A stretch of 64,000 nt of DNA from an uncultured SAR86 cluster bacterium (GCA_902558095.1 CACECP010000006.1:4850-68849), one strand, 5' to 3'. Numbered from the stretch's first letter, positions 3,576 through 40,329 are shown. Notes: generated by a model not told the origin, from the letters alone. Program-made: numbers and translations.

Positions 3576-4199
3576 TTATTCTCCTCCTCCACCTCCGCCA
3601 CCATCACCGCCATAAGTGCCGCCATCGGTATATGGTTGTGGATGGGTTAGATATATTGAAGACATAAAAGAAACTCCATTGCCTAACATAGTCGATATTT
3701 CTTTTAGGTTTAATTGTTCGGATAGCTCTTTATATGGTTCTGTTTCACCAGTTTGTTTATTTACTACAAGAGCATTTTTTTTGGAAACTAAAAACACCTC
3801 ATCAGAAATAATTACCAATGTATATTGATTAAAAAATGATTTCTTAAAACGTTTTCTATAAAGTATTTTCCCTGTTTTCCAAGACATTTTTGCTATTTCT
3901 TTTGATGAGGCCATATAGTACATGTGATCTTCAAAAGTATGAGGTATAAAAGGAATCATTGAACTATGAAGAATTTCTTGATTATGTGACCACAATCTTT
4001 CACCATTATTTTGATCAAAACAGTGAATCATTTTTGATCCAGTCCAAACAGAACTAAAGACAATTAAATAATCTTCATATTGTCCAATTATGTTTGGCTT
4101 ATAGCCACTTGCTATATTTCCGACCCATAAAGGTTTATTTTCTGTTAGGTCATACTTAGCTATTGAACCTTTCTTACCAAAAATTGCTATTTTATTCAT
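3576..4199 (-). CDS. hypothetical protein with PQQ/BamB-like beta-propeller repeats and a Gly-rich tail
   Basis: Recurring blade-like motifs (YDLTENKPLW, FDQNNGERLW, MSWKTGKILY, VVNKQTGETE). C-terminus is GGTYGGDGGGGGGGE. No signal peptide. Confidence 0.55.
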   Translation of the reverse strand: MNKIAIFGKKGSIAKYDLTENKPLWVGNIASGYKPNIIGQYEDYLIVFSSVWTGSKMIHCFDQNNGERLWSHNQEILHSSMIPFIPHTFEDHMYYMASSKEIAKMSWKTGKILYRKRFKKSFFNQYTLVIISDEVFLVSKKNALVVNKQTGETEPYKELSEQLNLKEISTMLGNGVSFMSSIYLTHPQPYTDGGTYGGDGGGGGGGE

Positions 4200-4231
4200 T
4201 GATATTACTTATATAAATGTTGATTAAAAAA

Positions 4232-4879
4232 TTAGATCTTTAATTTTTCTTTTCTCTTTTTAATCTCCTCTTCATTTCTTATTTTTTTTTCTATTTCAGC
4301 CAATCTTATAGATTCTGTAATTTTTTTAAAAGACTCCTTATGTTTAAAAAATAAATCATCATATTCTCTGTTAGGAATGATTTTGCATGAAGCTTTTTTC
4401 CTACCATAATGACTTATATCTAAGGTTTCTCTACTAATACTAACATCTGGCTCAAATCTATTAATATCAATCATAGAATAGCCTGTATAACAATCATGAA
4501 TTATTTCATGTCCGTTATGTTGTTTTGAGGTATCTCGACAATGGTAATTACCATTGTTAAAAGGTCCACTAGAAAAACTATAATAAAAATCTGAAGATTT
4601 ACTAGCAATCGCGGCAGAGTGAATTTTTACTTTGTATGGATCGTCTAATTCTGAATTACTAATACGCTTAAATTCAATTTTTGTAACAGGTAAGTCATTT
4701 TGAAATATTCTTAAAAAAACTTTTTGACTGCCTTTAAACCACCTTTGTGCTGAAATATTATCAAACTCATCACACTCCAAAGAAACTATTGAGGATGAGT
4801 CATCAGATTGAGCTCGAACATTGAAAAAAATTAAACAAATTAAAAAAATCAAAGTTTGGAAGTTATTTATATATTTCAT
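4232..4879 (-). CDS. secreted hypothetical protein
   Basis: Signal-peptide-like N-terminus (LIFLICLIFFNVRAQS), several Cys residues, Lys/Glu-rich C-terminal helix. No motif I recognise. Confidence 0.6.
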   Translation of the reverse strand: MKYINNFQTLIFLICLIFFNVRAQSDDSSSIVSLECDEFDNISAQRWFKGSQKVFLRIFQNDLPVTKIEFKRISNSELDDPYKVKIHSAAIASKSSDFYYSFSSGPFNNGNYHCRDTSKQHNGHEIIHDCYTGYSMIDINRFEPDVSISRETLDISHYGRKKASCKIIPNREYDDLFFKHKESFKKITESIRLAEIEKKIRNEEEIKKRKEKLKI

Positions 4880-4882
4880 AAT

Positions 4883-5584
4883 TCATTGCATATTCTCAAG
4901 TTGATCTATAAATTTTTGTAAAGTTTTAGCTCTTTTTATTCCCGCTTCTTTATCTTTTCCAGCATAAACATATTCTGTAGCTTCAATACCCCAATTTAAA
5001 TACTTTATAACACGCTTCTTTGAAATAAAACTTACATATTTTGGATATGATTTAATATAGTCTTTTGCGAAATGACCAAACCAAGTTGTGTAATCTCCTT
5101 TACAAATTACTTTTCTTCTTACAATATCTTTTACATTTTTTGCTCTAAATTTAAAATCATCAGTATCAGCATAATTCCAGCCCACTGAATCCCTTGCAGA
5201 GGAAATGGTAATATTCCCAACTCTTTTTGTATTTTTATCAAAAGCTAAATCTGCATTTCTTGACCACCAAAATATTAAAATTGTTATTGATAGAGGCACT
5301 ATTACAATAAAAAAAATAATGAAATCAAAAAAGTTATACATAAAATCTTCTGGCTTATAGTAACTTTTACAATTTCTTGTACTTTCAATTTTTAAATCCA
5401 TGGATGGAATCTCAAATCCATCATTGTTTGATTGTGAAACTGCACAGCCAGCATCTCTTGAGAGCATTAAAGCTTTATCATAATCAAAAGTCTTATTAGT
5501 TAATGCCCATATGAAATATATTCCAATGAACCCAAAAAAAATTAAAAGCCACATTTTTCGAAAAATATCAAAAAAGCTATTCAT
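4883..5584 (-). CDS. two-TM membrane protein, hypothetical
   Basis: Two strong hydrophobic segments (WLLIFFGFIGIYFIWAL and FIIFFIVIVPLSITILIFWW) followed by a ~130-aa soluble domain. A 3-nt spacer separates it from the next gene. Confidence 0.6.
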   Translation of the reverse strand: MNSFFDIFRKMWLLIFFGFIGIYFIWALTNKTFDYDKALMLSRDAGCAVSQSNNDGFEIPSMDLKIESTRNCKSYYKPEDFMYNFFDFIIFFIVIVPLSITILIFWWSRNADLAFDKNTKRVGNITISSARDSVGWNYADTDDFKFRAKNVKDIVRRKVICKGDYTTWFGHFAKDYIKSYPKYVSFISKKRVIKYLNWGIEATEYVYAGKDKEAGIKRAKTLQKFIDQLENMQ

Positions 5585-5628
5585 ATATTAAATGATATAA
5601 GTTTTTTAAATCAAAATAAATGTTTGGT

Positions 5629-5653
5629 ATACAGGGAGTCGAACTCCCTGTAT
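5629..5653 (-). terminator. 11-bp perfect stem-loop downstream of the TonB-dependent receptor gene (probable terminator, poor U-tract)
   Basis: ATACAGGGAGT-CGA-ACTCCCTGTAT, read directly. It lies 19 nt after the stop at 5672. The minus-strand U-tract after the stem is weak. Confidence 0.5.
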
Positions 5654-5671
5654 TAAAAAAGCCTAACAATT

Positions 5672-8047
5672 CTAAAAACTATAAGAATATTTTAGTGTCA
5701 TAGTTCTAGGTGGTATCCATTGCATCCAGTTTCTAGGTCTCCAAGATGTGTCATTGACTGCATATATATATGCTTCTGTTCTCTCATCAGTTAGATTATC
5801 AATAGATAATTGCAACTTAGAATTTTCGTTTAAATCTAATCCAAGATTAAAATTTAATTTGGTGTAATCTGGAGAGCTAGAGTTTGGGTTTTCAGCAAAA
5901 GTATTAAAGCTGTCTCCATAATAATTGACATCAAGTCTTGCATAAGAAGGATACGAAAAAATTGTTGTATCGTATACCAAACCAAGATTCCATTGAGTTT
6001 CAACGGTATTTGGCAGCCTATCTCCAGCAGCAGCTCCTAAAGAAGCTATATCTATAGAAGTCTCAGCAGTCATAGAGCTTCCAGCGAAATCGATAGAGAG
6101 CTCATCATTTATTGCATAAGTAAAATCGACTTCCCAGCCAGAAGTTTCTGCCTTACCACCATTGAAGTTATATGACCAACCACAACCAGGCGTTACAGAA
6201 ATAATAATTCCGTCCCAATCAACCTCAAAATAAGTAACGTTGGCAGTATAGTTTTCACCTCTTGATTTAACTCCAAACTCAGTTGTTTCAGCTTCATCAG
6301 AATTAAATCTAGGTCCCCAAGTTTCTTGTGCAGTCTCGTCACTACTACAAAATGGAGGTAATGGAGACTGGTTTCCACCAGGTCTATATCCAGCAGCTTT
6401 AGTTGTATACAAAGTAAGGTCTTCATTTACCTCATAGCTAAGAGCATATTTCATTCTTGTATCAGATTCTTGACCGGATAACTCAGAGCAGTCTGTTCCT
6501 GCAGGATCATTTCCATCACAACCATTGCTGTCCATATAAAAAATACCATATTGATATGATTTAGATTTATCTTTGATTTCATAGTCTCTTATACCAAGAG
6601 TAAGAGTTAATTTATCATTTACATTATAGTCAAATTGCCCATACATAGATGTCTCTTCTTGCTCGTTATATTCCGTATATGAAGCATAATATAAATGTGG
6701 GTATCCTAAGTGATCATCACAAAATGGCGGACAATAAGCAGTCGCATCATATACAGCAGGATCAACACCTGCAGCTATTGAAGTAACATAATCTAACCAA
6801 TATTTATCAATTGCGTATTGAGTTTGTGAAACAGAATTTGGTTCCTCATTAAATTTGTAGTTGTAGTATCCAATAGTCCACTCAAACTTTCCTGGTTTAG
6901 AAACCAGTCTTAATTCTGTTGTTTCTTGATAATACTTATCGCCATCAACAATTAGTGGTGCTGGAACATAATCATCCATATCAATTCTTGCCCAGTCTGT
7001 TATAGCATCTTCACTGATTGTTTTATCAGATATAATCAAATTTGCATCAAAAGCTCCAAAATCATATTTTATATTTGCAACAAATATATCTTTGGTTATA
7101 TCCTCAGTTTCATCAGCAGCCAATGCATGAGCAAATCTTGGATCATAATTTGTGAGAACAGAACTACCATTAGGATAATCAGCTTCTGAAGCAGCAAAAT
7201 TTGATATAGCACTTAAACGAGAGCATGTAGGATCTCCATCCCAGTTATACCACCAACTTGATGCTTGAGGGCAGCCCTCAACATAAACATCGGCACTTCC
7301 TGGTTTACTTTGACCCGGTTCTAATATTCCATATGCTTTATTAGTAACATTAAAATATCTAAAACTTGCTTTTAATTTGCTACCATTATCAAAACCTAAT
7401 GTAATCATAAGCTGAGAATCATCCTCCTCACCAACTGTGTTACCAGTTTGAATATTTTTATATATACCTGGTGAAACTAATTGAGAATAAACTGCCCTGA
7501 CAGCAAGATTATCTGATAGAGCGAGGTTGTACATCATTTCAATGCTTGTTTCAGGATCACTAGCTTTAACTTTGTCTCCATATCCAACTCTTATTTTTCC
7601 ATAAGATGAGCTTGAATCAGGTTTATTTGTAATATATCTAATAGTTCCTCCAATGGCATTTGATCCATAAAGAGTCCCTTGTGGGCCTCTTAGCACCTCA
7701 ATTCTTTCAATATCAAACAAACCCATTAATGAACCGCTAACCTCATCAATATATGTTGAAGATGTCCCAGAAGAACGCTGTGAAGTAGATGTATTTAATC
7801 CCCTAAAAGTATAGTAATTTGAACCACCTGGTGTAGAAACACCTGCGATAGATCTTAAATAATCTTCGGGATTCATTATACCCCTCTCTTCTAATGCTAC
7901 TTCAGTAATAACAGAAATATTCATTGGTATTTCTTGAACTGTTTCAGCCTTTTTATTAGCTGTAACAATAACTTCTTCAACTTCTTGTGAAATTAAAATA
8001 AAAGGCACTAAAAGAAAAGTACAGTAGATTAAGTTAAAATTTTTCAT
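5672..8047 (-). CDS. TonB-dependent outer-membrane receptor
   Basis: Signal peptide, plug region EEVIVTANKKAETVQEIPMNISVIT and RIEVLRGPQGTLYGSNAIGG, long beta-barrel region, C-terminal aromatic residue (..YSYSF). GAGGAG Shine-Dalgarno before the ATG. Confidence 0.9.
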   Translation of the reverse strand: MKNFNLIYCTFLLVPFILISQEVEEVIVTANKKAETVQEIPMNISVITEVALEERGIMNPEDYLRSIAGVSTPGGSNYYTFRGLNTSTSQRSSGTSSTYIDEVSGSLMGLFDIERIEVLRGPQGTLYGSNAIGGTIRYITNKPDSSSSYGKIRVGYGDKVKASDPETSIEMMYNLALSDNLAVRAVYSQLVSPGIYKNIQTGNTVGEEDDSQLMITLGFDNGSKLKASFRYFNVTNKAYGILEPGQSKPGSADVYVEGCPQASSWWYNWDGDPTCSRLSAISNFAASEADYPNGSSVLTNYDPRFAHALAADETEDITKDIFVANIKYDFGAFDANLIISDKTISEDAITDWARIDMDDYVPAPLIVDGDKYYQETTELRLVSKPGKFEWTIGYYNYKFNEEPNSVSQTQYAIDKYWLDYVTSIAAGVDPAVYDATAYCPPFCDDHLGYPHLYYASYTEYNEQEETSMYGQFDYNVNDKLTLTLGIRDYEIKDKSKSYQYGIFYMDSNGCDGNDPAGTDCSELSGQESDTRMKYALSYEVNEDLTLYTTKAAGYRPGGNQSPLPPFCSSDETAQETWGPRFNSDEAETTEFGVKSRGENYTANVTYFEVDWDGIIISVTPGCGWSYNFNGGKAETSGWEVDFTYAINDELSIDFAGSSMTAETSIDIASLGAAAGDRLPNTVETQWNLGLVYDTTIFSYPSYARLDVNYYGDSFNTFAENPNSSSPDYTKLNFNLGLDLNENSKLQLSIDNLTDERTEAYIYAVNDTSWRPRNWMQWIPPRTMTLKYSYSF

Positions 8048-8062
8048 AATTTTCTCCTCTAT

Positions 8063-8113
8063 AAAAAAAAACCTAGCAATTGCTAGGTCATAAAATAAAA
8101 CAAAAGACCCAGC
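8063..8113 (-). promoter_or_regulatory. 5' leader with a terminator-like hairpin plus U9 directly before the receptor RBS, and a competing upstream pairing segment
   Basis: Minus strand reads GACCUAGC-AAUU-GCUAGGU followed by UUUUUUUUU, then AUAGAGGAGAAAAUUAUG. Upstream GCUGGGUC (8113->8106) can pair with GACCUAGC (8089->8082) for 8 bp including one G-U. Confidence 0.45.
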
Positions 8114-8248
8114 TAACTTGATGGCTCCCGGTTTTTATTATGTATGTTAATAATAAACATCATCTTTCAAGTATATATATGAAAATTGATATAGCTAGAG
8201 TTTATTTGAAAAGAGTATATTATTTTTATACTTAAATTTATATGCTAA

Positions 8249-8272
8249 TGGTAGGGATGGAGGGAGTCGAAC
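8249..8272 (-). repeat. att-like direct repeat: copy of the 3'-terminal 24 nt of tRNA-Leu(UAG)
   Basis: TGGTAGGGATGGAGGGAGTCGAAC is identical to 10643..10666. Flanks diverge immediately on both sides. Confidence 0.85.
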
Positions 8273-9288
8273 TATCCTACCATGTTTACTTCATCTATTA
8301 GCAGTTCCTTTTTATCGATGTTATAACACTCGTTAAATCCATCATACATATATTGCTTCATTTTAGTTGGATTTATCCTAATCTTTTTTAATCTTTTATG
8401 GATATCATTTTCAATTATCTTTGCTTCTCTTCCAGTCGAAATATTGATTATTTTAATTCTTTTAACGATAGCCTTTTTATCAAGTCTATATGTTTTAATT
8501 CTTGTGTTAATATTTTTTGCATACCCCAATTTCAAATAAGAAAATTTATTGACTGTTATCTCTAATAAGTAAATCTTTGATGGTTTGTCTAAGCTTGTTT
8601 TTTCACAAGTATTGCAAATAAACCAACCTTCCTTCAAATGATCGATTCTAATTTCTTGATCATGACCGCATTCATTAAATTTAAATTTCCTATAAAGGTG
8701 ACTATCCAGAGTTTTTTTTGATGCTTTTCCTAAGTATTGAAGGTTATTCTTTTTTGCAATTTTTTTGATTTCATTTTCATGACATTGTTTGCAAGTTATT
8801 TCTTTATTTCTAACATGAATTAGCTGAAATTCATCAATATGTTTACACTTTATAAATTTATATCGCCTATATCGTCCTGATTTACCAGAACCAATTATTT
8901 TCAATCCTGCTTGTTTTGCTTCTCTTTCAAGTTTTTCTTTAAAACATATTTGGCATTTAAAATGTTTATTTTTAACTTCCTTCCATGCAATTTCTTTTAA
9001 ATGTCCACAAGATTTTATTTTGTAAGTGTTTTTACCCTCTTTCCCTTTTTTAACAAGTTCTAAACCTGCATCTTTGATTAACTCATTCTGTTTAATTTCA
9101 ATACATATTTCGCAAGGTATTTCTTTCCTTGTCCTGACCGCCTCTGGAAGCATAATTTTCTTATGGCCACATTCATTAAATTGATAAATCTTATATCTTT
9201 TCTTATTTGCATTTCCTAAGTAAGTTAAGTTCCTCTTTTGTGCTTCGTGCTCAAGCCTTATTAAAACCTTTCCTTTTTTTATATTCAT
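8272..9288 (-). CDS. GIY-YIG (T5orf172/MUG113-like) nuclease with four N-terminal tandem zinc-ribbon modules
   Basis: C-terminal ~100 aa: KIYLLEI..YLKLGYAKNINTRIKTY...AKIIENDIHKRL...DGFNECY (GIY, YIG, Arg, Glu and N/E elements in order). The N-terminus has 4 repeats of ~55 aa, each with C-x-H-x15-16-C-x2-C (CGH..CEIC, CGH..CQIC, CKH..CKQC, CGH..CNTC). Confidence 0.7.
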   Translation of the reverse strand: MNIKKGKVLIRLEHEAQKRNLTYLGNANKKRYKIYQFNECGHKKIMLPEAVRTRKEIPCEICIEIKQNELIKDAGLELVKKGKEGKNTYKIKSCGHLKEIAWKEVKNKHFKCQICFKEKLEREAKQAGLKIIGSGKSGRYRRYKFIKCKHIDEFQLIHVRNKEITCKQCHENEIKKIAKKNNLQYLGKASKKTLDSHLYRKFKFNECGHDQEIRIDHLKEGWFICNTCEKTSLDKPSKIYLLEITVNKFSYLKLGYAKNINTRIKTYRLDKKAIVKRIKIINISTGREAKIIENDIHKRLKKIRINPTKMKQYMYDGFNECYNIDKKELLIDEVNMVG

Positions 9289-9410
9289 AGTACGTTTTAT
9301 GTATATATCTAATTATAAAGATATTAGAGTAAATATATCCTGATATGAGTGTTCAGCGTTTGTTCAGCGGAATTTTTTCTTAGGAATATGCCTATTTTAT
9401 AAGCATTTGA
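8273..9410 (-). mobile_element. islet B: ~1.1 kb insert between att-like copies 1 and 2, carrying only the GIY-YIG gene
   Basis: Bounded by identical direct repeats of the tRNA-Leu 3' end. Holds a single ORF and no recombinase. Confidence 0.5.
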
Positions 9411-9433
9411 TGGTAGGGATGGAGGGAGTCGAA
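9411..9433 (-). repeat. att-like direct repeat: copy of the 3'-terminal 23 nt of tRNA-Leu(UAG)
   Basis: TGGTAGGGATGGAGGGAGTCGAA is identical to 10643..10665. The next base differs (T versus C). Confidence 0.85.
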
Positions 9434-10642
9434 TAGATTCACTCTCTCCTCATTAGCCATTATAAACAAGTGGCATCCTTAAAAAAACATTAAGTATCGC
9501 AATATATGACGCAATTTTTTCTTTTGATGTTTTCGTTATTGCATCTTCACTCATCGTCATTAAACCTTTGTTAGTTAATGATATGTTAATGTTTTCTTAA
9601 TTATTTGTTCTATATAAAGACCTTAATGCTGCTTCAGTTGAGCTTCCTTTGTATTTATTTGATGCTTTTAGCCTTGCTATATCCTTTTTCATCTGAAGTA
9701 TGCTTTCACGTTGCTTTGATTGAGCATATGCATCTAAAAACAAAAAGAATAAAGGCTCATCATCATCAATGTAGCTGTTTTGAGCAGTTGCTAACTTTTG
9801 TTCAAGAAATTTTATCTCGCGTTTTTGTTTTTCCAATTGAAGATCTCTATATGCCTCTTGTTGAACACAAGATGCTAAATCATCTTCATCTTTCCAACCA
9901 AATCCTTCACAACGAGATAATAATCCAGCAAGAACTATTTCTTTTTGCATTTTCTCTTTTTCTTGACGAGCTCTTTTAATCTGTTCTAATTCATTTTGAT
10001 TCCAAAGCTTTCTCATATAGTTAGTATCCCCTGTTCTAAGTGCAGTTTTAAAGTAGCTATCTTTTAAGTCTTCAAAGTCTTTATAATAAATTTCATCTTG
10101 ATATCTTGAAATCACACAATCTATCCCAGATTCCTGTCTTATTCCCCAATTGTTATATCTTTTTTCACAAATATCCTTTATAAATTTTCTTATCTCTAAA
10201 GACGCACCTGGAGCAGAAGCAGGCCCCATACTCCCATAAAAGACTTGTTCACCTGTATTTAAGTTTATAGCTTCAGCTCTCCATTGAGCTTTCATATCCT
10301 CATAGTTGGTCCAAACTTTAGTTGTTCTATGGGTTTCAAGGTTTGCTGATTTCTCAGTATAAAATATTGAAAGACTTTCACCTGAATTTGAAGTAGCGCA
10401 TCCACTTATTAAGATAAATAATGATAAAAATATGAATCTTTTATACATTTAAATATTTTGCCACAAAAAAATCTAATTTTTTATTCGGATGGTGAGTTTC
10501 GTACCCCCTCTCCTTTTTTGTAATGTAAACATTATTATGCGAAGTATCGCAGAAAGTGTCGCAAATGATGTGTGATTATTGTTTTGATAACGTTTTCAAC
10601 GTTTTGCAAACGTTTGATGTTAACGAGTTTATCGTTGTTTCA
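9434..10642 (-). mobile_element. islet A: ~1.2 kb insert between the intact tRNA-Leu and att-like copy 2, carrying only a lipoprotein gene
   Basis: Bounded by the tRNA 3' end and its 23-nt copy. Related 23-nt motifs sit near both ends (10542..10564 and 9492..9514). No recombinase. Confidence 0.5.
9597..10448 (-). CDS. orphan lipoprotein with coiled-coil C-terminal half
   Basis: Lipobox LISGC at residues 13-17. Central and C-terminal heptad-like charged region (EQIKRARQEKEKMQKE, LQLEKQKREIKFLEQKL). No recognisable catalytic motif. Confidence 0.65.
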   Translation of the reverse strand: MYKRFIFLSLFILISGCATSNSGESLSIFYTEKSANLETHRTTKVWTNYEDMKAQWRAEAINLNTGEQVFYGSMGPASAPGASLEIRKFIKDICEKRYNNWGIRQESGIDCVISRYQDEIYYKDFEDLKDSYFKTALRTGDTNYMRKLWNQNELEQIKRARQEKEKMQKEIVLAGLLSRCEGFGWKDEDDLASCVQQEAYRDLQLEKQKREIKFLEQKLATAQNSYIDDDEPLFFLFLDAYAQSKQRESILQMKKDIARLKASNKYKGSSTEAALRSLYRTNN

Positions 10643-10727
10643 TGGTAGGGATGGAGGGAGTCGAACCCCCACGCCTTGCGGCACTTGGTTCTAAGCCAAG
10701 CGTGTCTACCAGTTCCACCACATCCCC
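10643..10727 (-). tRNA. tRNA-Leu (anticodon UAG), 85 nt with long variable arm and encoded CCA
   Basis: Hand fold of the reverse complement GGGGATGTGGTGGAACTGGTAGACACGCTTGGCTTAGAACCAAGTGCCGCAAGGCGTGGGGGTTCGACTCCCTCCATCCCTACCA. Acceptor is 7 bp (G1-U72 wobble). Anticodon stem CTTGG/CCAAG with loop CTTAGAA. T-loop TTCGACT. Confidence 0.9.
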
Positions 10728-10772
10728 AGGCATATGCATTATATAGAGTTCTATTGTTTTGTGGAGTGTTTT

Positions 10773-11171
10773 TTATAGATCGTAATTAAGTAAATTTTTT
10801 CTCTGTTTATGAACAATAATTAAACCAATTAAAACTAATAATCCTAAACCAGCCGCAATATAGTCATGTGTTTTAAAGCTTCCATATAGCAGTCCGCACA
10901 TTTTTCCAATTAACATAAATGCACATAGATAAATTAAAACTGTGCCAAGCTGGACTTTGGATGATGAAAAAATAAATCTTACTAAGATATAACCTGATGC
11001 TACAAAAACACCTGACATGGTTCTTATGAAATTTGCTAACGAGGTATTATTTTCTACTCCTTCGAATGCAGGATACCAAGGTACAAAATTAGGACCAGCC
11101 ATTGTCCATAAACCCATAGCCATTGAAAAAAGACCAATGATTAGCAAATAAGCCTTAAAAATTATACTCAT
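10773..11171 (-). CDS. small 4-TM membrane protein (DUF4345-like)
   Basis: 132 aa, four hydrophobic helices. Paralogue-like to the truncated gene at 1..377. Confidence 0.6.
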   Translation of the reverse strand: MSIIFKAYLLIIGLFSMAMGLWTMAGPNFVPWYPAFEGVENNTSLANFIRTMSGVFVASGYILVRFIFSSSKVQLGTVLIYLCAFMLIGKMCGLLYGSFKTHDYIAAGLGLLVLIGLIIVHKQRKNLLNYDL

Positions 11172-37623: not shown

Positions 37624-40329
37624 TTAGAAAGTTGTACCAAATCCGATACTCCATGTTCTAGGATCAGTAATTGTTGCAAATTTTGCTCCTCCTTGGAGTC
37701 CACTTGCCATATACCATGATCCAACATACTTATCATCATTAAGGTTTTTACCTTCAAATCTAACAAACCAGTTACCATCATTTGGTCTAAAGGTAACAGA
37801 AGCATCCCAGTACTTATGTTCTGGAACTCTCGTTTGTGCTTCGTTATATACAGTGCCCTCTCTTTCTCCCATATATCTAAAAGCCAATCTTGAACTAACT
37901 ATTCCATTCGAAGTAGCAAAGTCTTTGTTTAAGCCAAGGCTGTATGATAATTCAGGCGATTGAGGAAGTTTGTTTCCTGACACATCAACTGGTGTACCAA
38001 GACCAGCTGCTGGACAATTAACTCCACCTAGCGGATTAAATGGCACAGAGCACATATAACCTGCTGACTTAAATACATTACCTAAATCAGTAGTTGTTAT
38101 TGCAAGTGCTCCTAATGCATCAACATTAACCCTATTTCCAAGACCGGAAGAAGCGTTAAGAATATTTACTGGATTAATTAAGCTTAGTGCTGTAATTTCA
38201 GAATCGACTTTTAACCAGGTTAAATCAACACTGGTAGTTTCATTCATATAAAATAACAAATTACCTTCAAAACCATTTATCTCAGCATCAGTATTTACGT
38301 TTCTTGATCCAGCATTAACAATAGATGAAATTAACATCCCATCTGTTGTATTTTGGAAATATGCTGCATTAAATAGCATAGCGCCATCTAATAAAATGCT
38401 CTTTGTACCAATCTCAAAAACACCAGTTTCTTCTTGATCATAAGGATCGGGAGTACCTGTTGAATTTGGGTTGTTACCGCCTGCTTTTGTAGCAGTTGTA
38501 TAACTTGCATAAACCATTTGATTATCACTCAAATTATGCTGAACTGCTATCTTGTAACCAATTGCGTCATCAGCCTCTACAACTTGAGTTGGGAAGAATC
38601 CATATTCTCCAGTTGCTTTCTGAGAAGCAGGATATGCAGGACAACTAAAGAATGTTAAACAAGATGCAACACTATCCTTAACTACATCATCGTTATATCT
38701 TAATCCAAGAGTAAGCATTGTATCTTCAGAAAGGTCTATATAAACCTCACCAAGAATAGCTTTTGATTTAACTCTTACATGGTCTTCATTTATAAAACCT
38801 TGTATAGGAGTTGGAGTTGTATAACCATTTAAAAGAACTGGCAGTAAAGTAGCATCAAATCCACTCAATGCCCAGGGAACAAAGAAATCAGTTGAACCTG
38901 ATCCAGTCAAAGCTCCTCCAAAGAGAGTCGCATTATATGGATGAAGTGAACCGTCTGAAATTAAGTTCCATGACGCAGTTTGAACCTGATAAATATTCTT
39001 AGTTGTATAATCATAATGATAAAAACCAACTACATAATTAATAGGTCCATCGTAATTAGATATAAATGTTATCTCTGCCTGTCTTGTCTCAGAGTCTGCA
39101 TTTGAAAATTCATATGTTCTATCTGAATCGATCATTTCACAGAAACCATAACCCTCTCCACCAAAACAACCGGTCCATTGCATTGGAATAGCTGCTGCTG
39201 GATGACCAGCTGGGAAAAGTCCTGGGAATTTTTGAACTGCTACAGAGTAGTCATTATCACCCATGTGGTAATAATCTCTAACTGAATAAGTTGCCTTAGC
39301 TACCATATCAACATTTTCATTAATCTGATGATTTAGCTGAAGCATCGTATATTCTGATAACTGCTTGTGCTCAGGATCTCTATTAATATTTACTTTTTCA
39401 AGCGAATTTAGAACTGTTGCACCAACATATGAGTTGTTATCAGCAGTACTATTTAAACCTGCTATGAAATTAAATATAGCAGCAGTACTTCCTCTTGTGT
39501 CTCCAGGCTGACCAAAAGTTCCTCTTGAAAATGGATCACAACCAAAAACTGGATGAGAGTTACAAACAATAATACCAATATTTTGTCTATTATCATCAGT
39601 CTCTGATCTATCGTATGTAAATTCAAGTGAAGTAGTTTCAGAAATATCGAAATCAACCGAAAGTCTTACGCCATATGCATCTCTTCCATCAATATCGTTG
39701 CCTGTATGAATGTTTTCTATTGTTCCATCTCTTTCAAACATAGTATATGCAAGTCTTGCACTAACTTTATCGCTGAAAGGCATGTTTAGCATTAGATTAG
39801 ATCTTGTAGAATTATAATTACCTGAAGATACATCAAATGATCCACCCCATTCAGAAGTCGGTCTTGCTGTAACAACGTTAACCAAACCTTGAACTGCGTT
39901 TCTGCCTGATAAAGTACCTTGAGGTCCTTTTAATACCTCGATTCTTTCAAGGTCATGGAAACCGACCTCAGATATTGCAGAACTTCCATATTCGTGGCCG
40001 TTCATATTAACCACTAATGAGCCAACAACAGCAGCACCAACACCATAAGAGCCAACACCTCTCATTGAGTATGAAGCTCCAGATCCAATAGCTTTATCTA
40101 TAATCAATCCAGGGACTATTTCAGCAAGGTCACTGAAATCTTCAACCATATTATTGTCTATATCATCGGCAGTAAATGCTTCAACAGATACAGCTAAATC
40201 TTGTATAGATTCTTCTTTCTTAGTTGCCGTAACTACAACTTCTTCAACTTCTTGAGCAATGATATTCAAAGAAAAAATTAAAGATAAGCAAGCACAGAAA
40301 CTAAATGATAGCTTTAAAAATTTGTCCAT
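37624..40329 (-). CDS. TonB-dependent outer-membrane receptor (tandem paralogue 1)
   Basis: Signal peptide, QEVEEVVVTATKKEESIQDLAVSVEAFT, RIEVLKGPQGTLSGRNAVQG, C-terminal ..GFGTTF. AGGGGGG Shine-Dalgarno. Confidence 0.9.
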   Translation of the reverse strand: MDKFLKLSFSFCACLSLIFSLNIIAQEVEEVVVTATKKEESIQDLAVSVEAFTADDIDNNMVEDFSDLAEIVPGLIIDKAIGSGASYSMRGVGSYGVGAAVVGSLVVNMNGHEYGSSAISEVGFHDLERIEVLKGPQGTLSGRNAVQGLVNVVTARPTSEWGGSFDVSSGNYNSTRSNLMLNMPFSDKVSARLAYTMFERDGTIENIHTGNDIDGRDAYGVRLSVDFDISETTSLEFTYDRSETDDNRQNIGIIVCNSHPVFGCDPFSRGTFGQPGDTRGSTAAIFNFIAGLNSTADNNSYVGATVLNSLEKVNINRDPEHKQLSEYTMLQLNHQINENVDMVAKATYSVRDYYHMGDNDYSVAVQKFPGLFPAGHPAAAIPMQWTGCFGGEGYGFCEMIDSDRTYEFSNADSETRQAEITFISNYDGPINYVVGFYHYDYTTKNIYQVQTASWNLISDGSLHPYNATLFGGALTGSGSTDFFVPWALSGFDATLLPVLLNGYTTPTPIQGFINEDHVRVKSKAILGEVYIDLSEDTMLTLGLRYNDDVVKDSVASCLTFFSCPAYPASQKATGEYGFFPTQVVEADDAIGYKIAVQHNLSDNQMVYASYTTATKAGGNNPNSTGTPDPYDQEETGVFEIGTKSILLDGAMLFNAAYFQNTTDGMLISSIVNAGSRNVNTDAEINGFEGNLLFYMNETTSVDLTWLKVDSEITALSLINPVNILNASSGLGNRVNVDALGALAITTTDLGNVFKSAGYMCSVPFNPLGGVNCPAAGLGTPVDVSGNKLPQSPELSYSLGLNKDFATSNGIVSSRLAFRYMGEREGTVYNEAQTRVPEHKYWDASVTFRPNDGNWFVRFEGKNLNDDKYVGSWYMASGLQGGAKFATITDPRTWSIGFGTTF

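What the first reader, a model, noticed from the sequence alone, without database searches (positions are those of the whole stretch)
8249..10727. Two stacked, recombinase-less mini-islets on tRNA-Leu(UAG), each closed by an exact copy of the tRNA 3' end
Seen: the last 23-24 nt of the tRNA (TGGTAGGGATGGAGGGAGTCGAA[C] on the plus strand, 10643-10666) recur in the same orientation at 9411-9433 and 8249-8272, and identity stops abruptly at the repeat edges. Each interval (~1.2 kb and ~1.1 kb) holds exactly one ORF, an orphan lipoprotein and a GIY-YIG nuclease. Established: site-specific integration into tRNA 3' ends duplicates the 3' segment as attL/attR, and successive integrations give tandem arrays. 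Unusual: no integrase, excisionase or transposase is present anywhere in the window, and the units are far smaller than normal genomic islands. Inference: these are either trans-mobilised minimal cassettes using this att core, products of an endonuclease-driven (homing-like) process, or heavily decayed islands.
Basis: partly seen in the sequence, partly recalled or inferred. Interest (0 to 1): 0.72.

Follow-up and report, generated by a model that had tools for sequence, protein, structure and literature searches.

The report
Integrase-less gene cassettes at tRNA-Leu
Two tiny inserted gene cassettes sit behind a leucine tRNA gene of a marine SAR86 bacterium; they carry no recombinase but keep the docking sites of a newly recognised integrase family found at the same tRNA in relatives, so they look like hitch-hikers moved by that enzyme.

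Summary
The last 23 nt of tRNA-Leu(UAG) occur three times, exactly and in one orientation, bounding units of 1,209 and 1,139 nt.

The window is from a SAR86 gammaproteobacterium. In seven related SAR86 genomes the DNA left of 8249 joins the tRNA 3' end directly (empty site). A metagenome contig has the tRNA joined directly to islet 2 (one-islet variant).

The same tRNA end bounds 34 complete units in SAR86 genomes and marine metagenomes. Their median size is 1.17 kb, most hold one ORF, and none holds an integrase.

Full-size elements at this tRNA encode a divergent tyrosine integrase with a lambda-Int-like fold, plus a replication module. One identical integrase is seen both integrated and at an attP-type junction.

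Islet 1 carries both attP arms, with paired TTGCGAYACTT repeats matching one integrase variant. Islet 2 carries only the proximal arm (CGCTGAACA pair, as next to another variant) and a phage-type T5orf172/zinc-finger putative homing endonuclease whose stop codon abuts the core.

Best reading: non-autonomous cassettes integrated, and probably moved, in trans by these integrases. This is an additive tRNA island of known kind, with an unusual integron-like cassette habit. Movement itself is inferred, not shown.

The parts
10643..10727 (-). tRNA-Leu(UAG) gene, the attB-bearing target; CCA is encoded
   Evidence: ARAGORN; Rfam tRNA, 57.9 bits. In about 45 SAR86 loci it lies about 1.5 kb (about 3 kb in a more distant group) upstream of the acyl-CoA dehydrogenase gene.
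10643..10665 (-). Core copy 1: the tRNA's own 3' end (T loop to CCA), the attL core
   Evidence: Exact 23-mer.
10449..10642 (-). Islet 1 proximal (P1) arm. It holds an AAACGT pair (about 10599-10616), the direct-repeat pair TTGCGACACTT/CTGCGATACTT (10542-10565) and a weak G-rich stem (about 10482-10510).
   Evidence: 69-93 % identical across seven cassettes with unrelated interiors. Repeat pair (D9). Same motif as the four repeats in front of the L109 integrase gene.
9597..10448 (-). Islet 1 cargo: 283-aa predicted lipoprotein with a conserved C-terminal half (residues about 155-283)
   Evidence: ORF. No Pfam, NCBIfam or PADLOC family. 73 relatives. Homologues lie in other cassettes: L082, L105, L110, L099, L074.
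9434..9596 (-). Islet 1 distal (D1) arm, with the direct-repeat pair TTGCGTCAT/TTGCGATACTT (9492-9516) about 60-82 nt from the core
   Evidence: (D9). 74-88 % identical to the D arms of other cassettes and to the attP D arm of the integrase element L109.
9411..9433 (-). Core copy 2, the junction between islet 1 and islet 2
   Evidence: Exact 23-mer.
9289..9410 (-). Islet 2 proximal (P6) arm: a small hairpin (9388-9406) and the direct-repeat pair CGCTGAACA x2 (9350-9370)
   Evidence: The same repeat pair and a similar lead-in lie in front of the L029 integrase gene. The hairpin folds weakly.
8272..9288 (-). Islet 2 cargo: 338-aa protein with four zinc-ribbon repeats and a C-terminal T5orf172/MUG113 nuclease domain (putative homing endonuclease). 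Its stop codon (8272-8274) abuts the core, and there is no distal arm.
   Evidence: Pfam T5orf172 25.5 bits and MUG113 23.4 bits, both above cut-off. phrog_681 endonuclease, E 1.2e-19. Alignment. Model pLDDT 87.8. BFVD hits to CapR-homology, T5orf172 and homing-endonuclease phage proteins, best E 3.7e-27.
8249..8271 (-). Core copy 3: the displaced tRNA 3' fragment at the far end of the array (attR core)
   Evidence: Exact 23-mer. Host flank begins at 8248 and matches empty-site genomes.
8048..8248 (.). Host flank, which abuts the tRNA 3' end directly in empty-site relatives
   Evidence: Window 5616-8272 aligns as one block to L015 5876-8532 at 93.4 %, ending inside that genome's tRNA. Flank comparison.

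Best explanation
The interval is a two-unit array of non-autonomous integrative cassettes in the 3' end of tRNA-Leu(UAG) of a SAR86 bacterium.

Autonomous relatives at the same tRNA are elements longer than 11 kb (their far end was never reached). They encode a divergent 408-431-aa tyrosine integrase with a lambda-Int-like three-domain fold, a conserved 321-345-aa partner protein, a second small tyrosine recombinase and a replication protein. Their attP reads: D arm (one pair of 8-10-nt direct repeats starting about 80 nt before the core), the 23-nt core, then the P arm (a hairpin plus one or two repeat pairs about 30-55 and about 78-100 nt after the core).

The cassettes keep these arms but carry one or two cargo genes in place of the whole element body. 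Inferred mechanism: the integrase binds the arm repeats through its N-terminal domain and the core through its central and catalytic domains. It then recombines the circular cassette's attP with the tRNA T-loop-to-CCA segment (attB). This regenerates the tRNA and leaves a core copy at the far end. Each new arrival inserts at the tRNA and pushes older units outward.

On this reading islet 2 arrived first (L004 shows that state) and islet 1 second. Islet 1 has a complete attP equivalent, matching the TTGCGAYACTT integrase variant (L109 type). Islet 2 has only the proximal arm, matching the CGCTGAACA variant (L029 type). Its distal side is occupied by a T5orf172 homing-endonuclease-type gene, so it may be fixed in place or move only together with a neighbour. 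The integrase must come from elsewhere in the genome or from a transient element.

Shown: the repeats, empty and one-islet sites, the cassette family, arm conservation and covariation, the integrase fold, and the integrated and attP states of the autonomous element. Inferred: arm binding, and integration and excision of the cassettes in trans.
For: Exact core copies.

Precise presence/absence. Seven SAR86 genomes have the empty site with the window's own flank. Occupied and empty pairs with matching flanks occur in at least nine other lineages. There is a one-islet variant with a 99 % identical islet 2.

Cassette family. 34 complete units lie between successive cores: 0.41-4.2 kb, median 1.17 kb, 30 under 2 kb. 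In 29 of 34 the longest ORF is in the tRNA sense. No relative of the integrases was found in them by tblastn.

Arm conservation. Arms are 69-93 % identical while interiors do not align in 17 of 21 pairs. The converse also occurs: the L082 cargo is 80 % identical to the islet 1 cargo but lies between different arms.

Repeat geometry and covariation. D-arm repeat pairs start at -82 to -78 with 12-nt spacing in most units that have a D arm (two start nearer the core). P-arm pairs lie at +77 to +92 (spacing 12) or +29 to +54 (spacing 11). By my reading, the motif type agrees between the two arms in about 19 of 20 units that have both.

Integrase. It lies next to the same tRNA in L019, L029, L125 and L126. 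Matches: phrog_1 integrase E 1.3e-14 and XerA-like E 2e-5. Invariant R...SIRHxH...YY. Model pLDDT 84.5. Foldseek hits to XerH, XerA, full-length lambda Int, IntI, Tn1549 Int and Cre.

Matching repeats. The repeats in front of the L109 int gene have the islet 1 motif, and those of L029 have the islet 2 motif.

Autonomous element active. One identical integrase (P0007) is found integrated beside two different tRNA-Leu(UAG) backgrounds and at the junction of distal genes, D arm, core, P arm and int in three samples. The same junction type occurs in L090, L094, L109 and L127-129.
Against: No circular mini-cassette junction was seen, and no cassette is seen at two unrelated genomic sites. Movement in trans is therefore inferred.

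No integrase lies in the 64-kb window, and the rest of this genome could not be searched. No array holding both a cassette and an integrase element was found.

Islet 2 and six other units lack a distal arm, so not all units can be complete attP carriers. P2-type arms lack the G/C-rich repeat pair.

Short metagenome contigs favour recovery of small units, so the size distribution is biased.

No independent contig spans the islet 1-core-islet 2 junction as assembled in the window.
Confidence: 0.6

Rival explanations
1. Decayed relics. Each islet is what is left of a full-size integrase element after internal deletions (a CIME in the original sense). It is now immobile and merely kept or drifting.
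For: CIMEs arising by decay, and accretion of further elements at the regenerated att site, are well documented (PMC5704250). The tycheposon preprint reports degenerated elements and scattered partial tRNAs in Prochlorococcus islands. The cassette arms are clearly homologous to the arms of the autonomous elements. Islet 2 has lost one arm. No integrase lies in the window.
Against: tblastn found no integrase, partner-protein or replication-gene remnant in any of the 34 units. Cargo genes (lipoproteins, restriction-modification systems, nucleases) are not among the genes seen in the autonomous elements. Both arms stay conserved, with fixed repeat geometry and matched motif types, across species whose cargo is unrelated. 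Random deletion would have to end at the same arm boundaries more than 25 times.
Confidence: 0.22
2. Endonuclease-driven spread. The T5orf172 gene of islet 2 (and the GIY-YIG-type genes of similar units) is a free-standing homing endonuclease gene. It cuts near the conserved tRNA/att sequence and copies itself in by break repair. The integrase is not involved for this unit.
For: The ORF has the domain plan of phage T5orf172 homing endonucleases: repeated zinc-finger DNA-binding modules plus T5orf172 (PMC10448857). Units whose ORF runs up to the core and that lack a D arm carry nuclease-type genes: L111 GIY-YIG + NUMOD-like, L076 DUF3427 + NOV_C, and the window's T5orf172. The same islet 2 has different neighbours on both sides in L004 and in the window.
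Against: Homing does not create exact 23-nt target duplications at both ends. Islet 2 keeps an integrase-type proximal arm with the L029 repeat pair. A 38 % identical homologue lies in an operon with a tyrosine integrase (L003), so the gene behaves as a passenger of integrase elements. Islet 1 and most other units encode no nuclease. At most this explains how the nuclease gene entered a cassette and replaced its distal arm.
Confidence: 0.1
3. Assembly chimera. The population contains tRNA-islet 1 and tRNA-islet 2 variants, and the assembler threaded them in series through the 23-nt repeat.
For: Independent contigs support tRNA-islet 1 (L006) and tRNA-islet 2-core (L004) separately. Metagenome contigs break at the core (L005 ends at the CCA). 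None spans islet 1-core-islet 2.
Against: A 23-24-nt repeat is shorter than the usual assembly k-mers. Multi-unit arrays with the same grammar occur in independent assemblies, including single-cell genomes (L027 with three cores; L093, L112). The far end of islet 2 joins the expected host flank. Even if the order were chimeric, each islet would still be a real insertion.
Confidence: 0.05
4. Ancient fixed duplication of the tRNA end, shared by all relatives.
For: None found.
Against: Of the 44 SAR86 loci that hold the tRNA end, 41 carry a single exact copy of the core. The inserts are absent from the closest available relatives.
Confidence: 0.01

Closest known systems
Additive flexible genomic islands marked by recurring tRNA 3'-end repeats (e.g. 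tRNA-Lys island of 'Ca. Methylopumilus', PMC10872708)
   Same: A streamlined aquatic bacterium. A hotspot directly 3' of a tRNA gene. Repeated copies of the last about 20 nt of the tRNA separate variable units from a few hundred bp upward. Content differs between strains, and most genes have unknown function.
   Different: That report describes the pattern only; it names no integrase, arms or cassette structure. Here the cognate integrase family, the attP arms and their covariation are identified, and the host is SAR86.
Tycheposons of Prochlorococcus (Hackl et al., bioRxiv 10.1101/2020.12.28.424599)
   Same: Marine picoplankton. Tyrosine-recombinase elements that integrate into tRNA genes and carry replication genes. 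Tandem integrations are separated by a partial tRNA, newer arrivals push older ones outward, and remnants and extra partial tRNAs lie in islands.
   Different: Homology of the SAR86 integrase or replication protein to tycheposon hallmark genes was not tested. In the text searched, tRNA-Leu is not among the tycheposon target tRNAs named in the passage shown, and SAR86 does not occur in the text. The units described there carry integrases or are called degenerated. Here, intact-armed single-gene units without integrase are the commonest form recovered (34 units, none with a detected integrase).
CIMEs (cis-mobilizable elements) and accretion at att sites in streptococci (PMC5704250)
   Same: Elements that lack integration genes but keep attL and attR, sit in tandem at the 3' end of a tRNA or other gene, and can be mobilised by a related element's integrase.
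   Different: CIMEs are defined as decay products of ICEs or IMEs and travel by conjugation with an accreted ICE. No conjugation genes or decay remnants were seen here. The units are much smaller and recur as a family with exchangeable cargo.
Integron gene cassettes
   Same: Arrays of small, mostly single-ORF units, mostly in one orientation, without their own recombinase. Each ends in a recombination site, and a tyrosine recombinase acts in trans. New cassettes enter at the proximal end.
   Different: No IntI, attI or attC hairpin site. Recombination here would be of the lambda type, attP (core plus arm sites) with attB (tRNA end). The integrase gene is not adjacent to the array. The IntI structure is only one of many tyrosine-recombinase fold matches.
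Phage T5orf172 homing endonuclease genes with repeated CapR/DUF723 zinc-finger domains (PMC10448857)
   Same: The islet 2 ORF has this architecture, and structural matches are to such phage proteins. One homologue (P0002) carries DUF723.
   Different: It is chromosomal, inside a tRNA-bounded cassette rather than a phage genome. Activity and target are unknown.

Membership tests
tRNA-targeting tyrosine-integrase integrative element / genomic island | Insert bounded by direct repeats equal to the 3' part of the target tRNA gene, with the tRNA regenerated | tested here: met
   Three exact 23-nt copies; intact tRNA.
tRNA-targeting tyrosine-integrase integrative element / genomic island | Empty site (tRNA joined to the distal flank) in related genomes | tested here: met
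   L015, L017, L025, L026, L031, L033, L036.
tRNA-targeting tyrosine-integrase integrative element / genomic island | Integrase gene encoded inside the element | tested here: not met
   No recombinase in either islet or anywhere in the window.
tRNA-targeting tyrosine-integrase integrative element / genomic island | A cognate integrase using the same core exists | tested here: met
   Integrase lies beside the same tRNA end in L019, L029, L125, L126, L130, L132, L136 and L137. Its fold is that of tyrosine recombinases.
Non-autonomous (trans-mobilised) derivative of such an element | Both attP arms retained, with the integrase's arm-type sites | tested here: met
   Met for islet 1: repeat pairs at 10542-10565 and 9492-9516 have the motif of the L109 int-proximal repeats, and the D arm is 74 % identical to the L109 attP D arm. 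Islet 2 has only the proximal arm.
Non-autonomous (trans-mobilised) derivative of such an element | Observed excision or integration when the integrase is supplied | not testable with these tools
   No circular cassette contigs found; this needs experiment or read-level data.
CIME (cis-mobilizable element) | Flanked by attL and attR, lacking integration and transfer genes | tested here: met
CIME (cis-mobilizable element) | Derived by decay from an ICE or IME and mobilised by accretion with a conjugative element | tested here: inconclusive
   No integrase or replication-gene remnants were found in the units. No Pfam or PHROG hit in the autonomous element L126 points to conjugation, but most of its genes have no family.
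Tycheposon | Tyrosine (or large serine) recombinase plus replication module, integrating at a tRNA or tmRNA and leaving partial tRNA repeats | tested here: inconclusive
   The autonomous SAR86 elements show this layout. The window's islets have neither gene. Sequence relatedness to tycheposon hallmark proteins was not tested.
Integron cassette array | IntI gene with attI next to the array, and attC sites ending each cassette | tested here: not met
   No integrase in the window. Units end in a tRNA-derived core with arm repeats, not in attC-type inverted repeats.
Free-standing T5orf172 homing endonuclease gene (islet 2 ORF) | T5orf172/MUG113 nuclease domain | tested here: met
   Pfam scores above both curated cut-offs, residues 239-329. 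Conserved YLLE...LKLGxAK...R...E motif columns.
Free-standing T5orf172 homing endonuclease gene (islet 2 ORF) | Repeated zinc-finger (CapR/DUF723-type) DNA-binding modules | tested here: met
   Four C..H/C..C modules with invariant Cys/His. BFVD matches to CapR-homology proteins. Homologue P0002 has DUF723.
Free-standing T5orf172 homing endonuclease gene (islet 2 ORF) | Site-specific cleavage and homing into nuclease-free alleles | not testable with these tools
   No nuclease-free allele of the same cassette was found; activity needs experiment.
Additive flexible genomic island | Strain-variable content at one tRNA-adjacent site, with recurring tRNA-end repeats | tested here: met

The most novel reading that the evidence does not exclude
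SAR86 bacteria run an integron-like gene-cassette system built on lambda-type recombination. Single-gene cassettes each carry a complete attP (tRNA-Leu core plus two arms). They are captured at, and released from, the tRNA-Leu(UAG) 3' end by integrases supplied in trans by self-replicating elements. At least six orthogonal integrase/arm-site specificities share one core: GCGAYAC, GCTGAAC, GCGAAAC, GCGGAAC, GCCAAAC and GGACAAAC. Homing-endonuclease genes parasitise the cassettes by replacing the distal arm.
Probability: 0.45. Interest if true: 0.78.

Novelty: new variant of a known kind. Interest (0 to 1): 0.62.

Why it matters
SAR86 is one of the most abundant heterotrophic lineages of the surface ocean. 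It has small genomes and no known routes of gene exchange. How such streamlined cells keep a large flexible gene pool is an open question.

This locus gives a concrete, testable mechanism. There is a defined attB (23 nt of tRNA-Leu) and defined attP arms with short repeats in fixed positions. There is a small, previously unnamed integrase family: 17 clusters among 5.8 billion proteins, with only faint precomputed Pfam hits on two of them. And there is a population of 0.4-4 kb cassettes carrying lipoproteins, restriction-modification systems and nucleases.

If the cassettes are moved in trans, this is a second, independent way to build integron-like cassette arrays. The matched integrase/arm-site variants would also be a natural set of orthogonal recombination systems.

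If they are not moved, the locus is still a clean example of how an additive island grows at a tRNA.

Tried and rejected
- **Core in IMG/VR viral contigs.** Only two phage tRNA-Leu genes matched; no attP.
- **Integrase family in IMG/VR and P1 arm in IMG/VR.** Nothing found, so there is no sign that the elements are phages or are packaged.
- **PADLOC on both window ORFs and on cargo from L027.** No defence-system hit for the window ORFs. Only the L027 PLD-type nuclease matched weakly.
- **NCBIfam on the window ORFs.** Only a sub-threshold zinc-ribbon hit.
- **PDB sequence profile for the integrase.** Only the N-terminal SAM-like domain matched. The catalytic domain was recognised only by structure and PHROGs.
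- **PDB fold search with the whole islet 2 model.** Uninformative, probably because the model is a string of small modules. The viral library worked.
- **Terminal-overlap test for circular contigs among 56 metagenome loci.** None found.
- **Rfam at a permissive threshold over 5400-11000.** Only the tRNA.
- **Promoter and terminator scan.** Nothing above chance. One promoter-like match overlaps the P1 repeat pair.
- **An error of my own, corrected.** I first read L090, L094 and L109 as arrays with mini-cassettes lying between the tRNA and an integrase element. One search showed that the DNA before the core there is the element's own distal end, so these are attP-type junctions. That reading was dropped.
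- **Weak tblastn hit of the integrase to window 38392-38706.** It lies in a TonB-dependent receptor and is chance.
- **tRNA-like folding of the distal arm plus core, and the G-rich stem of the window's P1 arm.** Not better than shuffles.


Full report
**1. Observation**

tRNA-Leu(UAG) lies at 10643-10727 on the minus strand. Its last 23 nt, read on the plus strand as TGGTAGGGATGGAGGGAGTCGAA, occur exactly at 10643-10665, 9411-9433 and 8249-8271. No further match appears even with three mismatches, and 100 shuffles gave none.

With the shared A on the 5' side, 24 nt are common to all three copies. The segment runs from the T loop to the encoded CCA. Similarity ends at its edges.

The two intervals, of 1,209 and 1,139 nt, each hold one long ORF in the tRNA's orientation.

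**2. Host and locus**

A scan of one genome per species with the neighbouring acyl-CoA dehydrogenase returned about 50 syntenic loci, nearly all titled SAR86. In these the same tRNA-Leu lies about 1.5 kb upstream of that gene, or about 3 kb in a more distant group.

Of the 44 loci that hold the tRNA end, 41 carry a single exact copy of the core.

In L015 (93 % identical), L017, L025, L026, L031, L033 and L036, window 5616-8272 aligns as one block that ends inside the tRNA. The 70 nt after the last core copy in the window are almost identical to the 70 nt after the tRNA in L015. So 8272-10665 is a 2.39-kb insertion into an otherwise conserved junction.

The 1,245-nt metagenome contig L004/L070 carries the intact tRNA 3' half joined directly to a 99 % identical islet 2, then the core, then a different sequence. 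L006 carries the tRNA plus islet 1.

The DNA 3' of this tRNA differs widely between SAR86 species, as expected for an insertion hotspot.

**3. A family of small units**

Three other SAR86 genomes have arrays: L027 with three cores, L050 and L052 with two.

A metagenome scan for core copies that do not continue as the tRNA gave 56 marine contigs. Together these yield 34 complete units between successive cores, with these properties:

- Size is 410-4,225 nt, median 1,171 nt, and 30 are under 2 kb.
- In 29 of 34 the longest ORF is in the tRNA sense.

tblastn with the integrases and their partner proteins found no relative in any of them.

Host flanks after the last core match between occupied and empty loci in at least nine further lineages. 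Short contigs favour small units, so the size distribution is biased. The recurrence is not.

Cargo includes the following:

- lipoproteins related to that of islet 1
- a Dcm methylase with a PLD-type nuclease
- N6/N4 methylase-HNH fusions
- a Z1-domain ATPase with an HNH protein
- a BRCT protein
- a MazG-like protein with an unknown partner
- a GIY-YIG/NUMOD-like endonuclease
- a DUF3427/NOV_C protein

**4. Conserved, modular ends**

The first 100-230 nt (P arm) and last 110 nt or so (D arm) of the units fall into a few sequence families.

Islet 1 belongs to a set of seven units. Their P arms are 69-93 % and their D arms 74-93 % identical, while the interiors do not align in 17 of 21 pairs. 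Conversely, the lipoprotein gene of L082 is 80 % identical to that of islet 1 but lies between other arms.

Each arm carries a pair of direct repeats of 8-10 nt in a nearly fixed position:

- In D arms the pair starts 78-82 nt before the core with 12-nt spacing in most units that have a D arm; in L081 and L092 it starts nearer the core (about -56 to -62).
- In P arms it lies at +77 to +92 (spacing 12) or +29 to +54 (spacing 11).

The motif differs between families: GCGAYAC, GCTGAAC, GCGAAAC, GCGGAAC, GCCAAAC/GGCAAAC and GCAAAAC. By my reading, it agrees between the two arms of a unit in about 19 of 20 units that have both; L088 is the exception.

In the window the pairs are at 10542-10565 and 9492-9516 (islet 1, TTGCGAYACTT type, family D9) and at 9350-9370 (islet 2, CGCTGAACA). 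Seven units, islet 2 among them, have no D arm: the ORF's stop codon lies 0-8 nt from the core.

**5. The integrase and the autonomous elements**

In L019 and L029 a 412-420-aa ORF follows the same tRNA, preceded by a hairpin and four direct repeats. In L029 the repeat is ACGCTGAACA, the islet 2 motif, with a similar lead-in.

The protein family is small: 17 clusters in the 5.8-billion-protein collection, all from marine data. Evidence that it is a tyrosine recombinase:

- Invariant R263, SIRHxH and YY near the C terminus.
- Only faint or sub-threshold hits in Pfam and NCBIfam, but phrog_1 integrase at E 1.3e-14.
- An AlphaFold model with pLDDT 84.5 and an N-terminal beta-sheet domain.
- Foldseek matches to XerH, XerA, full-length lambda integrase (408 aligned columns), IntI, Tn1549 Int and Cre.

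Longer contigs show the element body:

- the integrase
- a conserved 321-345-aa protein
- a 196-198-aa Phage_integrase protein
- small ORFs
- a 905-909-aa protein matching a phage replication family

More than 11 kb was covered without reaching the far end.

Six contigs (L090, L094, L109, L127-129) carry the junction of the element's distal genes, D arm, core, P arm and int. This is the attP of a circle or a head-to-tail tandem.

One identical integrase (P0007) is found in three states:

- beside the window-type tRNA-Leu (L132, L136, L137)
- beside a second tRNA-Leu(UAG) sequence in another genomic context (L130, L134)
- at the attP-type junction (L131, L133, L135)

So the autonomous element is active.

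The repeats in front of the L109 int gene are TTGCGATACTT/TTGCGACACTT, the islet 1 motif. The L109 attP D arm is 74 % identical to the islet 1 D arm. Other variants use TGCGAAAC (L090), AGCGGAAC/AGCGAAAC (L019, L094), TGCCAAACA (L127) and TGGACAAAC (L125).

**6. The two cargo genes**

The islet 1 product has a lipoprotein signal and no family assignment. It has 73 relatives, mostly sharing the C-terminal half, and several lie in other cassettes. It is not an orphan, but its function is unknown.

The islet 2 product has four zinc-ribbon repeats and a C-terminal T5orf172/MUG113 domain above Pfam cut-offs. It matches phrog_681 endonuclease. A confident model (pLDDT 87.8) matches phage CapR-homology, T5orf172 and putative homing-endonuclease proteins, with best E 3.7e-27.

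This is the architecture described for phage T5orf172 homing endonucleases (PMC10448857). Only four homologues were found in the large collection. One of them lies in an operon directly after a different tyrosine integrase (L003).

**7. Mechanism and rivals**

The simplest account covering all of this is as follows. The cassettes are non-autonomous derivatives of the integrase elements. They keep attP (D arm, core, P arm) but carry one or two cargo genes instead of the element body. The integrase inserts them in trans at the tRNA end, and newer units push older ones outward.

On this reading islet 2 arrived first, which is the L004 state, and islet 1 second.

Binding of the repeats by the integrase's N-terminal domain is inferred by analogy with lambda Int. 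The inference rests on the fixed geometry and on the covariation of motif types with integrase variants.

The rivals fare as follows:

- **Decay of full elements.** This is the main rival. It does not explain the absence of any detected element-gene remnant, the repeated identical arm boundaries, or the conserved and co-varying arms around unrelated cargo.
- **Homing endonuclease.** Homing cannot make the core duplications. It may explain how nuclease genes came to replace the distal arm in units like islet 2.
- **Chimeric assembly of the two islets in series.** This cannot be excluded for this window, because no independent contig spans 9411-9433 with both neighbours. Arrays of the same grammar are seen in independent assemblies.
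- **Ancient fixed duplication.** This is refuted.

**8. Relation to what is known**

Several parts of this picture are established:

- Tandem integration at tRNA genes and integrase-less att-flanked elements (CIMEs) (PMC5704250).
- Recurring tRNA-end repeats marking an additive island in 'Ca. Methylopumilus' (PMC10872708).
- Tandem tycheposons, remnants and partial tRNAs in Prochlorococcus.

The full-text searches I made turned up no description of this SAR86 system. The following look new:

- the integrase family
- the defined arms with several specificities on one core
- the fact that intact-armed, single-gene, integrase-less units are the commonest form recovered

I file it as a new variant of a known kind. 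Movement of the cassettes remains to be shown.

**9. Caveats**

- The rest of the source genome could not be searched for the integrase.
- No array with both a cassette and an integrase element was found.
- P2-type arms lack the G/C-rich repeat pair. Instead they carry a hairpin whose 3' half repeats 13 nt of the core; this is unexplained.
- Relatedness to tycheposon proteins was not tested.

Noticed in passing
window 5620-5660: A degenerate tRNA-3'-like sequence (ATGTTTGGTATACAGGGAGTCGAAC, 5 mismatches to the 25-mer) forms a perfect hairpin, TACAGGGAGTCGAACTCCCTGTA, just downstream of the TonB-dependent receptor gene (5672-8047). Copies with 4 mismatches lie at the same place in L015, L020, L022 and L023. 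In L010 and L034 the tRNA sits right next to the BamB-like gene (window 3576-4199), with no receptor gene in the locus. In L016, L018 and L024 the receptor lies on the far side of that gene. The receptor gene may itself be an older captured unit.
   Followed up: partly
window 4216-5615: Two ORFs (4232-4879 and 4883-5584, no family hits) are absent from L015, where window 4215 and 5616 are adjacent. This is a further 1.4-kb insertion, on the side of the degenerate core facing away from the tRNA. No second core-like copy was found at its other end.
   Followed up: partly
L052 (reverse strand, about 60-110 nt after the tRNA), L082, L093, L104, L112 unit 2: P2-type proximal arms lack the G/C-rich repeat pair. 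They carry a 13-bp hairpin, TAGGGATGGGGGG...CCCTCCATCCCTA, whose 3' half repeats 13 nt of the core (DNA fold -11.9 kcal/mol, z -2.4). A reversed core piece, TAGGGATGGAGGGA, also lies about 140 nt before the core in the L127 attP. These may be an extra core-type site or a relic; unexplained.
   Followed up: partly
L125 12874-13470, L126 3450-4046, L127 123-713, L131 4413-4985: Every autonomous element also encodes a second, short (190-198 aa) protein that is a catalytic-domain-only tyrosine recombinase (Pfam Phage_integrase E 1.3e-19). Its role beside the large integrase is unknown.
   Followed up: no
L003 284-2640 (GCA_001757125.1): A 38 % identical homologue of the islet 2 T5orf172 protein overlaps the stop codon of a 449-aa integrase of another family (DUF6538 + Phage_integrase). 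It is preceded by GGTACA repeats. This nuclease type therefore recurs as a passenger of unrelated integrase elements.
   Followed up: partly
L001 6249-6332 and L002 1718-1803 (IMG/VR contigs): Two viral contigs carry tRNA-Leu genes with other anticodons (UAA, AAG) whose last 23 nt are identical to the core. Such tRNA genes would be potential secondary attachment sites. L001 also carries a tmRNA and several tRNAs, so it may be cellular DNA.
   Followed up: no
cassette cargo in L082, L093 (both units), L099, L105, L110, L074; window 9597-10448: Many cassettes carry lipoproteins that share a C-terminal module (...C..YGF.EENAIA.CVQ.E...) but have different N-terminal halves. This suggests a diversifying surface-protein family spread by the cassettes.
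   Followed up: partly
L055 5581-6996 and L104 unit 1: A 468-471-aa fusion of an N6/N4 DNA methylase with an HNH nuclease lies directly 3' of the tRNA. In L055 there is no second core; in L104 it is a bounded cassette. So the same cargo occurs with and without a recognisable distal core.
   Followed up: no
window 10534-10562: A sigma-70-like match (GCGACA-17-CATAAT, 9 of 12) overlaps the P1 repeat pair and points towards the lipoprotein gene. The arm repeats may double as a promoter or operator. The scan as a whole was not above chance.
   Followed up: no
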